Positions 7,617-8,044 of a stretch of DNA of 8,044 nucleotides are shown here, piece after piece. Position numbers and translations under genes: made by a program. The DNA is from a virus. Lineage: Duplodnaviria; Heunggongvirae; Uroviricota; Caudoviricetes. Where the stretch lies: the IMG/VR virus record IMGVR_UViG_2639762982_000010; one strand, 5' to 3'. The notes below the pieces were generated by a model, which worked only from the letters and a program-made list of their open reading frames with translations, was not told the DNA's origin and made no database searches. How positions within the stretch are numbered: position 1 is the first letter of the stretch; each line of letters opens with the position of its first letter.

Positions 7617-7650
7617 TGAAAATAAAAACAAAAACCCGCCGAAGCGGGTT
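7617..7650 (-). terminator. Intrinsic terminator of the relBE-hokD transcript (minus strand)
   Basis: 7-bp stem aacccgc/gcgggtt (7633-7639 / 7644-7650) with UUCG loop on the minus strand, followed on that strand by TTTTGTTTTTATTTT. Lies 69 nt past the hokD stop. Confidence 0.65.
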
Positions 7651-7718
7651 AAGTGCGGGTGCGTTGAGGATGCCTGCCACATCAGAGGTGGCGAGGGATT
7701 TCTCCCCCGCCGGGTCTC

Positions 7719-7874
7719 TTACTCCTCAGGTTCGTAAGCTGTGAAGACAGCGACCTCCGTCTGGCCGGTTCGGATTCGTACCTCGCAGAGGTCTTTCCTC
7801 GTTACCAGTGCCGTCACTATGACGGTTAAACAGATGACGATCAGGGCGATTAACATCGCCTTTTGCTGCTTCAT
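7719..7874 (-). CDS. hokD: Hok-family type I toxin HokD/RelF (51 aa)
   Basis: Hand translation: MKQQKAMLIALIVICLTVIVTALVTRKDLCEVRIRTGQTEVAVFTAYEPEE. ATG at 7874-7872, TAA at 7721-7719, RBS AGGAG 9 nt upstream. Not in the ORF track (too short). Single N-terminal transmembrane helix typical of Hok. Confidence 0.9.
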   Translation of the reverse strand: MKQQKAMLIALIVICLTVIVTALVTRKDLCEVRIRTGQTEVAVFTAYEPEE

Positions 7875-7945
7875 AGCCTGCTTCTCCTGTCAACGCAAAG
7901 CAGAAGTGTCACCTTCGGTGCGAAACAGAGATGTCATGCTTTGGT

Positions 7946-8044
7946 TCAGAGAATGCGTTTGACCGCCTCGCTATATACTTCCGAGCGTTCTCTTTTCCCA
8001 ACAGAAATCACGAAAACGACAACTTTCTCGTCTATAACCTGGTA
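7946..8044 (-). CDS. relE: RelE toxin (type II TA mRNA interferase), 3' end only; 5' end lies beyond the window
   Basis: Minus-strand translation from the window edge gives YQVIDEKVVVFVISVGKRERSEVYSEAVKRIL then TGA (7948-7946), matching the RelE C-terminus as I recall it. The hokD start is 71 nt downstream. Confidence 0.85.
   Translation of the reverse strand, partial: YQVIDEKVVVFVISVGKRERSEVYSEAVKRIL

What the first reader, a model, noticed from the sequence alone, without database searches (positions are those of the whole stretch)
7617..8044. hokD is a stripped-down hok locus riding on the relBE operon
The hokD start is only 71 nt downstream of the relE stop, with its own AGGAG RBS. A strong terminator lies 69 nt past hokD. 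There is no room for the upstream mok leader and sok antisense promoter that control canonical hok/sok loci. The Hok-family membrane toxin therefore appears to be expressed as the third cistron of a type II TA operon without its type I antitoxin RNA. This agrees with the established description of relF/hokD as a truncated hok locus, though I am recalling that from memory.
Basis: partly seen in the sequence, partly recalled or inferred. Interest (0 to 1): 0.35.

Follow-up and report, generated by a model that had tools for sequence, protein, structure and literature searches.

The report
Truncated hokD toxin gene behind relBE
This is the known E. coli relB-relE-hokD arrangement, in which a Hok membrane-toxin gene has lost its own promoter, leader and Sok antisense antitoxin and is transcribed as the tail of the relBE operon; it is ordinary, but the same relBE-plus-short-leader cassette also sits in front of many different hok genes on hundreds of plasmids.

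Summary
On the minus strand, the relE stop is at 7946-7948. A 71-nt spacer follows, then AGGAG (7884-7888), then hokD (7719-7874). A terminator hairpin lies at 7633-7650.

- Most E. coli genomes carry the same hokD with a full 172-nt leader that matches Rfam RF01794 at 107-115 bits. The window gives no such match even at E<=10.
- The tac box, the mok start and the sok promoter and gene are gone. The hokD coding sequence, the fbi box and the terminator remain.

Two refinements.
- "No room" is not quite the reason. About 58 of the 71 spacer bases look like a degenerate 3' leader remnant. The mok start and sok promoter would have fitted there, but they are unrecognisable by sequence.
- The window is a chimera. 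relE plus spacer (7889-8044) matches 676 plasmids, and is at least 99% identical on 642 of them. There, and in genomes and metagenomes of many Enterobacteriaceae, this leader precedes 22 distinct intact Hok proteins. Bases 7624-7888 are the resident prophage hokD.

How hokD translation is restrained without Sok is inferred, not shown.

The parts
7946..8044 (-). 3' end of relE (last 32 codons plus TGA at 7946-7948); the gene continues beyond the window
   Evidence: The translation ends ...SEVYSEAVKRIL*. The stretch is annotated relE in identical E. coli loci.
7933..7945 (-). 13 nt (ACCAAAGCATGAC) between the relE stop and the stretch shared with a full-length hok leader
   Evidence: These bases are not shared with the full-length allele L004, which joins at 7932. 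They are conserved in all relE-linked loci of the main lineage.
7875..7932 (-). 58-nt probable remnant of the 3' part of a hok leader. At the canonical mok start position it reads CTG instead of ATG, and the positions of the sok -35 and -10 hexamers are unrecognisable.
   Evidence: It is 100% identical to the last 58 nt of the full leader in L004, which scores 77.7 bits on RF01794. Positions -58 to -36 resemble the O157 canonical leader (1 of 2000 shuffles score as well), whereas -35 to -15 are not significantly similar to any leader tested. The sok promoter position is taken from the hokW-sokW primers in PMC8621323.
7890..7937 (-). 15-codon upstream ORF (MTSLFRTEGDTSALR*). It starts 8 nt after the relE stop, is in frame with hokD and ends 15 nt before the hokD ATG. 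It contains UCUCUG, which is complementary to the hokD SD region. Whether it has a function is hypothetical.
   Evidence: Read directly from the sequence. It is conserved as an ORF of the same length in two leader lineages. It is absent (AGG instead of ATG) from a divergent lineage that still includes 3 loci with intact hok.
7884..7888 (-). hokD Shine-Dalgarno AGGAG, 9 nt before the ATG. The join between the relBE-cassette sequence and the prophage hokD sequence lies within AGGAGAAG (7881-7888).
   Evidence: Alignments A1 and A3. In the megablast searches, homology to canonical hokD loci ends at 7888, and homology to the plasmid cassettes runs from 8044 to about 7870.
7719..7874 (-). hokD (relF) coding sequence, 51 aa, Hok/Gef family membrane toxin
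   Evidence: Pfam HOK_GEF 82.9 bits. It is the same protein accession, WP_000813254.1, in relBE-linked and canonical loci. Published overexpression assays list HokD among controls previously shown to be toxic (bioRxiv 10.1101/2025.08.07.668861).
7726..7893 (-). 55-codon open frame overlapping hokD in the frame that mok uses in R1. It is closed upstream by TGA at 7909-7911 and has only a TTG start without an SD, so it is most likely a relic.
   Evidence: ORF list. The R1 mok frame was deduced from the numbering in PMC9841398. No Pfam or NCBIfam match.
7734..7749 (-). 3' part of the hokD coding sequence (codons about 43-47) predicted to pair with the hokD start region (7869-7879)
   Evidence: Pairing probability is above 0.9 for most of these bases in the window (A of the ATG itself is unpaired), and the AUG region pairs with the 3' coding sequence in 7 of the 9 alleles folded. 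In the best ungapped register, 10-12 of 13 positions pair in most of the 19 distinct allele combinations, including R1. Compensatory changes between hokD-type and R1-type are my own reading of that table, not a formal count.
7657..7669 (-). fbi-like box CCTCAACGCACCC in the 3' UTR. It is the complement of the tac box GGGTGCTTGAGG found at the 5' end of intact hokD leaders, so here it is an orphan.
   Evidence: Read from the window sequence. The tac box is present at the leader start in L001, L004 and L005 and absent from the window's hokD region.
7623..7650 (-). Intrinsic terminator shared by the operon and the hok module (stem 7633-7650, U-run 7623-7632). Homology to canonical hokD loci ends at about 7624.
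   Evidence: Terminator scan; -11.3 kcal/mol; the same hairpin is present in L001, L002 and L004; homology boundary.

Best explanation
hokD here is a hok locus cut off on its 5' side and fused behind relBE.

Shown
- It keeps the toxin gene, its own SD, the 3' UTR with the fbi box, and the terminator.
- It has lost the hok promoter, the roughly 170-nt leader (tac, ucb, mok SD and mok start) and the sok gene with its promoter.
- By published Northern blots it is made only as the 3' end of the RelB/RelE-autoregulated relBEF mRNA.

Shown by comparison
- The window is a mosaic of two pieces.
- A mobile relBE cassette already carried a short, degenerate hok leader (7889-8044 and beyond).
- It is joined, within the conserved AGGAGAAG of the SD, to the resident lambdoid-prophage hokD gene and 3' UTR (7624-7888).

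Inferred
- With no Sok RNA and no Sok target, Hok output is limited first by RelB repression of transcription.
- It is limited second by mRNA structure that survives the truncation. The start region is predicted to pair with codons about 43-47.
- In R1, opening of this region requires translation of mok. Here mok has no start codon.
- hokD is therefore most likely a poorly translated passenger in K-12.
For: Anatomy.

Loss of the leader
- RF01794 scores 106.7-114.9 bits immediately upstream of the identical hokD in relBE-less loci.
- The window gives no match at E<=10, nor do the seven other loci with this short leader that were scanned (five relE-linked).
- There is no tac box.
- The sok promoter position is defined experimentally for the 93%-identical hokW-sokW locus (PMC8621323). 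The window differs completely at those hexamers.

Distribution
- 4722 of 5426 E. coli genomes carry hokD-type sequence, but only 1204 have relE plus spacer next to it.
- 4016 genomes have a place covering at least 80% of a full-leader query.

Mosaic origin
- relE plus spacer matches 676 plasmids and is at least 99% identical on 642 of them.
- The 22-mer from the spacer occurs in 22 species-representative genomes and in 74 metagenome and 72 viral stretches.
- The same leader precedes 22 distinct intact Hok proteins.
- The shared cassette is about 731 bp and ends at the ATGAA of hok.
- hok dS between cassette-linked alleles is 0.25-1.0, while relBE stays 98-99% identical.

Co-transcription: PMC3598666 and PMC3946193. 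hokD mRNA is detectably transcribed and A-to-I edited (PMC5630033).

Structure. The 323-nt RNA folds with z = -3.59.
Against: - Translation of hokD from the native relBEF mRNA was not measured in any paper I could read. The SD is good (AGGAG, 9-nt spacing), so the claim of poor translation is inference.
- The identification of 7889-7932 as a leader remnant rests on one rare allele (L004, unique among 5426 genomes) and on modest similarity. Only the comparison with one canonical allele is significant.
- Which arrangement came first, plasmid or prophage, is not resolved.
- Structure predictions are thermodynamic only. The predicted pairing of the pre-SD segment with fbi in the window is not better than for shuffled leaders.
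Confidence: 0.82

Rival explanations
1. Functional composite module. hokD is a genuine third effector of relBE. Its translation is coupled to relE through the 15-codon upstream ORF, acting as a 'mini-mok'. The chain would be: relE stop, 8 nt, ATG at 7937, and termination at 7890-7892 just 5' of the SD. Translation of the ORF would melt an internal anti-SD (UCUCUG). Hok would then be produced when RelB is lost and the operon is derepressed.
For: - The upstream ORF has the same length, start and stop in the main lineage and in the relE-less L014 lineage, despite differences at 7 of its 15 residues.
- In R1, translation of mok up to the hok SD is what licenses hok translation (PMC9841398).
- A local fold pairs UCUCUG with CAGGAGA, and this is the minimum-free-energy partner of the SD in L009, L010 and L021.
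- 112 of the 124 relE-linked loci that keep the upstream-ORF ATG (131 relE-linked loci in all) keep an intact hok, and hok dN/dS is 0.12.
- After toxin-induced cleavage the relF part is the most abundant fragment of the operon mRNA (PMC3598666).
Against: - The upstream ORF has no SD.
- A divergent relBE lineage has AGG instead of ATG, yet includes 3 loci with intact hok.
- The local hairpin is not significant (z = -1.43).
- The low dN/dS largely reflects the alleles' history in ordinary hok/sok loci.
- K-12 tolerates strong relBEF induction without reported Hok-type lysis (my own knowledge, not checked here).
- hok has decayed in 16 of the 131 relE-linked loci.
Confidence: 0.2
2. A cryptic antisense RNA still controls hokD. 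A weak promoter inside the start of hokD drives a transcript across the SD and into relE, replacing Sok.
For: One relaxed plus-strand match: TTAACA (7850-7855), an 18-nt spacer, then TAGCCT (7874-7879), 8 of 12 positions. For comparison, my hand count gives the validated sokW promoter only about 7 of 12.
Against: - The match is below the standard scan threshold, and no plus-strand site was found.
- The same sequence is present in canonical alleles, where the real sok promoter lies elsewhere.
- No Rfam sok match was found.
- No terminator-like site was found on the plus strand in 7400-8044.
Confidence: 0.04
3. hokD has its own promoter in the end of relE or in the spacer and is expressed independently of relBE.
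For: - There is a perfect -35 hexamer, TTGACA, at 7893-7888.
- In the relB-promoter deletion strain, a constitutive transcript was still detected with the relE and relF probes (PMC3598666).
Against: - No -10 element lies 16-19 nt downstream of the TTGACA, and no minus-strand promoter-like site was found in 7860-8044 even at 7 of 12.
- The authors attribute the residual transcript to a promoter created by their deletion. Induction and accumulation of the 3' part disappear without PrelBEF.
- Genomic SELEX lists a promoter only in the relB/ydfV spacer.
Confidence: 0.05

Closest known systems
hok/sok (parB) of plasmid R1
   Same: - Hok/Gef family toxin of about 51-52 aa.
- SD-ATG context AGGAGAAG.AGGC.ATGAA.
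- A start region predicted to pair with the codons just before the conserved Tyr (12 of 13 positions in R1, 10 of 13 in hokD).
- A 3' UTR with an fbi-type box and a terminal hairpin.
   Different: R1 has its own promoter, a 172-nt leader (87.2 bits on RF01794), a mok ORF starting 58 nt upstream (PMC9841398), and a Sok RNA with its promoter overlapping the hok SD region. The window has none of these.
Canonical hokD/sokD and hokW-sokW loci of lambdoid prophages (for example Sp5 of O157:H7 Sakai)
   Same: - hokD coding sequence 100% identical to L001 and L002, and the 265-nt block with the 3' UTR 98-99% identical to L002, L004 and L005.
- Same prophage position, upstream of rem or DUF968 and the Q antiterminator genes.
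   Different: These loci keep the full leader (106.7-114.9 bits), an in-frame mokD start at -57 and the experimentally validated sok promoter. In the window everything upstream of the SD is replaced by the relBE cassette.
relBE type II toxin-antitoxin operon of E. coli K-12 (relBEF)
   Same: The window holds the identical relE 3' end. Published data show one relB-relE-relF transcript under RelB/RelE autoregulation.
   Different: A typical type II operon ends after the toxin gene. Here a type I toxin gene, with its own SD and terminator, forms the 3' end.
The other crippled chromosomal hok loci of K-12 (hokA, hokC and hokE by IS elements; hokB is the one treated as active)
   Same: These are chromosomal hok homologues reported as inactive or non-canonical in K-12 (Pedersen & Gerdes 1999, as cited in PMC12214031 and PMC5630033).
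   Different: Those loci are reported as disrupted by insertion elements. From my own knowledge, not checked here, they keep their leader and sok regions. hokD lacks them altogether because of a rearrangement.

Membership tests
Hok/Gef toxin protein family | Small hydrophobic protein of about 50 aa matching the Pfam HOK_GEF profile | tested here: met
   82.9 bits against a cut-off of 22, E 1.2e-23, residues 6-47. The NCBIfam Hok subfamily model scores 48.5 bits, below its cut-off of 73.
[quoted passage not shown] | Long structured 5' leader of the hok mRNA (Rfam RF01794) beginning with the tac box | tested here: not met
   No RF01794 match at E<=10 in 7400-8044, and none at gathering score in the whole window. 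No tac-like box near hokD with up to 3 mismatches. Positive controls scored 77.7-114.9 bits.
[quoted passage not shown] | mok leader ORF with its own SD and start codon, whose translation licenses hok translation | tested here: not met
   The canonical start position reads CTG (ATCTCTG against ATCTATG). The R1-type mok frame is closed by TGA at 7909-7911 and has only a TTG without an SD. A 15-codon upstream ORF exists, but it has no SD and no demonstrated role.
[quoted passage not shown] | sok gene: an antisense promoter overlapping the hok SD region, and an RNA of about 65-71 nt complementary to the leader | tested here: not met
   The hexamer positions known from sokW (TTGCCT and TAACCT; PMC8621323 primers) read TGTCAA and ACCTTC in the window. 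The region that would encode the Sok body (-50 to -120) is relE sequence. No plus-strand promoter was found at the standard threshold. Transcription itself was not testable here.
[quoted passage not shown] | 3' fold-back (fbi) box and terminal hairpin | tested here: met
   CCTCAACGCACCC at 7657-7669 is complementary, with one bulge, to the tac box of intact alleles. The terminator hairpin is at 7633-7650.
[quoted passage not shown] | Own constitutive hok promoter | tested here: not met
   No minus-strand promoter-like site in 7860-8044 even at 7 of 12. The intact alleles have a candidate TAGAAT -10 upstream of the tac box, which is absent here. Published Northern blots make the transcript depend on PrelBEF.
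relBE type II toxin-antitoxin operon | RelE toxin gene preceded by relB and an autoregulated promoter | tested here: inconclusive
   Only the last 32 codons of relE lie in the window. They are identical to annotated relE, and identical loci (L003) show relB and the relB/ydfV promoter region upstream. relB and the promoter themselves are outside the window.

The most novel reading that the evidence does not exclude
The relB-relE-short-leader-hok arrangement is not a K-12 accident. It is a conserved, mobile hybrid type II/type I toxin-antitoxin module found on hundreds of enterobacterial plasmids and in prophages, and it repeatedly recombines with resident hok genes at the SD/ATG. In it, a 15-codon 'mini-mok' upstream ORF couples Hok synthesis to relE translation. 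RelB, a protein, has thereby replaced Sok, an RNA, as the effective antidote to Hok.
Probability: 0.2. Interest if true: 0.55.

Novelty: already known. Interest (0 to 1): 0.25.

Why it matters
As stated, the finding re-derives a published fact about E. coli K-12, so it matters little in itself.

The comparison made here adds a testable point. The truncated leader travels with relBE as a cassette of about 731 bp. On many plasmids and in many genera this cassette sits in front of different, still intact hok genes. If Hok is made from these operons, a type I toxin would be under protein-antitoxin (RelB) control. That would bear on plasmid maintenance and on how toxin-antitoxin modules are built by recombination. 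If Hok is not made, these loci are a large natural set of silenced hok genes.

Tried and rejected
1. Pairing of the spacer with the orphan fbi box. The window's minimum-free-energy fold pairs -28 to -16 with fbi at probability around 0.9. However, duplex energies between leader and 3' UTR are no better than for shuffled leaders in any of 9 alleles (z from -0.4 to +1.7). I dropped this as a specific claim.

2. Association of the upstream-ORF ATG with hok integrity. At first it looked perfect in 22 genomes. With 141 loci, three loci with AGG still have intact hok, and the AGG loci form one lineage. The association is not evidence.

3. Homology of the spacer to canonical leaders. Only -58 to -36 against one O157 allele is significant (1 of 2000 shuffles). 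Other alleles, and the -35 to -15 half, are not. The 'leader remnant' reading is therefore probable, not proven.

4. I first placed the break at 7888, from megablast and alignment A1. I revised this after finding L004 and the plasmid cassettes.

5. The 55-aa overlapping ORF as a Mok or DUF5431 protein. It has no Pfam or NCBIfam match.

6. The sub-threshold Rfam isrK and rsmX matches over the 3' UTR. I treated these as hairpin-plus-terminator resemblance.

7. The Pedersen & Gerdes 1999 and Fozo 2008 papers are not held in the library. A literature search for transcription-start or antisense data at hokD found nothing usable. A search for prior descriptions of relBE-hok cassettes on plasmids found none in the library, which does not prove that none exists.

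Full report
WHAT IS THERE

All genes in this part of the window are on the minus strand.
- relE ends ...AVKRIL with TGA at 7948-7946 and runs off the window at 8044.
- hokD is at 7874-7719 and encodes the 51-aa protein MKQQKAMLIALIVICLTVIVTALVTRKDLCEVRIRTGQTEVAVFTAYEPEE. It matches Pfam HOK_GEF at 82.9 bits against a cut-off of 22.
- The spacer is 7875-7945, exactly 71 nt (the annotated twin locus L003 agrees).
- AGGAG lies at 7888-7884, 9 nt before the ATG.
- A 7-bp G+C-rich hairpin at 7650-7633 (-11.3 kcal/mol), followed by UUUGUUUUUA, lies 68 nt after the stop codon.
- Complete E. coli genomes annotate the stretch as rem, hokD, relE. K-12 MG1655 is 100% identical over 7875-8044.

The window is a Qin-type defective lambdoid prophage.

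IS IT A TRUNCATED HOK LOCUS?

The decisive comparison is with other copies of the same gene.
- A 545-nt query (7500-8044) matches 4722 of 5426 complete E. coli genomes. Only 1129 of them cover the relE part.
- relE plus spacer occurs in 1204 genomes.
- In the other genomes, homology stops at 7888, 14 nt before the ATG.
- In those loci (L001, L002, L005, L006) an identical or nearly identical HokD is preceded by a 172-nt leader. It scores 106.7-114.9 bits on Rfam RF01794, which models the hok mRNA leader from +1 to the AUG and has a cut-off of 59.
- An R1-type plasmid locus (L008) scores 87.2 bits.
- The window gives no RF01794 match even at E<=10 and has no tac-like box near hokD.

What is kept and what is lost:
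- The 3' UTR is retained almost unchanged. It includes CCTCAACGCACCC (7657-7669). This box is the complement of the tac box GGGTGCTTGAGG at the 5' end of intact leaders, so it is now an orphan fbi box.
- The sok promoter of this subfamily is known from experiment in hokW-sokW of prophage Sp5. The published primers place the -35 (TTGCCT) at about -19 to -14 and the -10 (TAACCT) at about -42 to -37 relative to the hok ATG. The Sok RNA is complementary to 71 nt of the 5' UTR further upstream (PMC8621323).
- At those positions the window reads TGTCAA and ACCTTC.
- The DNA that would encode the Sok body is relE sequence.
- In canonical alleles a mok start lies at -57, in frame with hokD (L005 gives a 70-aa extended product). 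The window has CTG there.
- The frame that mok uses in R1 is closed by TGA at 7909-7911.

The toxin gene, SD, fbi box and terminator are therefore present. The promoter, tac, ucb, mok and sok are absent.

EXPRESSION

- Northern blots with relB, relE and relF probes detect one full-length relBEF mRNA.
- Deleting the relB promoter abolishes its induction and the accumulation of its 3' part.
- After toxin-induced cleavage, the relF portion is the most abundant fragment (PMC3598666).
- Genomic SELEX lists relBE-hokD as one unit, with its promoter in the relB/ydfV spacer (PMC3946193).
- hokD mRNA is detected and is 6% A-to-I edited (PMC5630033 and PMC12214031).
- I found no minus-strand promoter-like site in 7860-8044 even at 7 of 12 matches. 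The perfect TTGACA at 7893-7888 has no -10 partner.
- The only plus-strand candidate is weak: TTAACA, 18 nt, TAGCCT, 8 of 12.

The description of hokD as disabled by a genomic rearrangement that removes canonical components is attributed to Pedersen & Gerdes 1999 in PMC12214031. The original paper is not in the library.

REFINEMENT 1: THE SPACER IS PROBABLY A LEADER REMNANT

- One rare allele (L004, O157:H7 strain TR01) has a full leader (77.7 bits) whose last 58 nt are identical to window 7875-7932.
- Positions -58 to -36 resemble the canonical O157 leader at the same register. Only 1 of 2000 shuffles scores as well.
- The -35 to -15 part is not significantly similar to any leader tested. By eye it does line up codon by codon with R1 mok codons 12-19 (GCTTTGCG...GGAGAAG).
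- Only 13 nt (7933-7945) therefore look like relE-side sequence.
- The mok start and the sok promoter would have fitted in 71 nt. They are missing by sequence, not for lack of room.
- L004 is unique among all the sequences searched and could itself be a secondary recombinant. I hold this reading at about 0.65.

REFINEMENT 2: THE WINDOW IS A MOSAIC, AND THE FUSION IS WIDESPREAD

- relE plus spacer (7889-8044) matches 676 PLSDB plasmids, 642 of them at 99% identity or better. By genus: Enterobacter 243, Klebsiella 235, Citrobacter 72, Salmonella 47, Escherichia 32. Most (533) are conjugative.
- A 22-mer from the spacer occurs in 22 species-representative genomes of many Enterobacteriaceae genera, and in 74 metagenome and 72 viral stretches.
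- Across the 141 analysable loci, the same leader precedes 22 distinct intact Hok proteins in several clusters: HokD-type, R1-like, MKMPNQPIV..., MKLPNQPVV... and a Buttiauxella type.
- None of the seven loci with this short leader that were scanned (five relE-linked) has an RF01794 leader.
- The shared cassette is about 731 bp. It runs from 104 nt inside ydfV through the relB promoter, relB, relE and the spacer to the ATGAA of hok.
- It is 98-99% identical between genera, while the hok genes behind it differ by dS 0.25-1.0. The two parts therefore have different histories.
- In the window, the stretch 7624-7888 is the prophage hokD allele (98-100% identical to canonical loci).
- The stretch from 7889 upward is the cassette. 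The join lies inside AGGAGAAG (7881-7888).
- K-12 hokD was therefore probably not truncated in place. A relBE cassette that already carried a truncated leader recombined with the prophage's own hok locus and displaced its promoter, leader and sok.
- A divergent relBE lineage (83-92% identity) carries the same leader with hok often decayed. The linkage is therefore old, and hok is not always kept.

HOW HOK IS HELD IN CHECK (INFERRED)

- The start region (-5 to +5) is predicted to pair with codons about 43-47. Pairing probability is above 0.9 for most of these bases in the window, and the AUG region pairs with the 3' coding sequence in 7 of the 9 alleles folded.
- In the best ungapped register, 10-12 of 13 positions pair in most of the 19 distinct allele combinations, including R1. 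Compensatory changes between hokD-type and R1-type are my own reading of that table.
- The 323-nt RNA from the relE stop to the terminator folds with z = -3.59.
- In R1, translation of mok up to the hok SD is needed to allow hok translation (PMC9841398). Here mok has no start.
- I therefore think hokD is transcribed whenever relBE is, but poorly translated.
- There is a conserved 15-codon upstream ORF (7937-7890). It starts 8 nt after the relE stop, ends just 5' of the SD and contains an anti-SD, UCUCUG. It could act as a 'mini-mok' that couples hokD to relE translation.
- Against this: it has no SD, it is absent in a lineage that still includes intact hok genes, and the local hairpin is not significant. 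I rate it at about 0.2.

VERDICT

The finding is already known. The wider occurrence of the relBE-short-leader-hok cassette is an addition that I did not find described in the searchable literature. It deserves a modest follow-up.

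Noticed in passing
window 3923-4315 (-) and 1027-1412 (-): Two Rfam cspA thermoregulator matches (158.8 and 112.8 bits, cut-off 78). These are the cold-shock gene 5' UTRs of the Qin prophage.
   Followed up: no
window 7629-7710 (-): The hokD 3' UTR gives a sub-threshold match to Rfam isrK, a Salmonella Gifsy-1 prophage sRNA (25 bits, cut-off 50, E 0.0027). The same match appears in canonical hokD loci. It may be only hairpin-plus-terminator resemblance, or isrK may derive from a hok 3' end.
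   Followed up: no
window 7581-7610 (-): A promoter-like site, TTGAAG-18-TAGAAT (9 of 12), lies immediately after the hok terminator and upstream of rem (7251-7502).
   Followed up: no
window 7734-7736 (-): The hokD Tyr47 codon TAC corresponds by alignment to the TadA A-to-I editing site that the editing papers call position 46 (6% edited in hokD; PMC5630033, PMC12214031). It lies at the 3' edge of the segment predicted to pair with the hokD start region.
   Followed up: partly
L004 2501-2558 (E. coli O157:H7 TR01, CP033605): This is a canonical O157 hokD/sokD locus whose leader carries the 44-nt relBE-type patch in place of the sok promoter region. It is unique among 5426 genomes and all other collections searched. 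It could be ancestral or a secondary conversion.
   Followed up: partly
L014 and L023 (Escherichia sp. ESNIH1, Pseudescherichia MAG): These carry the same short leader and 15-codon upstream ORF in front of an intact R1-like hok, but without relE. They lie next to a divergently transcribed tacA-like antitoxin gene. What drives transcription there is unknown.
   Followed up: partly
L007 1501-1628 (E. coli EC3, CP060979): The 5' part of a hok leader (92% identical) is present with no hok gene behind it, between IS remnants and ydfW.
   Followed up: no
L010 1652-1825 (Enterobacter asburiae pEnt261): The record's annotation labels the ORF overlapping hok, which starts at the TTG 19 nt upstream of hok, as a 'DUF5431 family protein'. 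This is the frame mok uses in R1. The window's equivalent ORF (7726-7893) has no Pfam or NCBIfam match.
   Followed up: partly
L024 (contig labelled Streptomyces sp. E11-3, 535 bp): A 535-bp contig in a Streptomyces assembly carries the enterobacterial relE-spacer-hok cassette at 99% identity. This is almost certainly contamination of that assembly.
   Followed up: no
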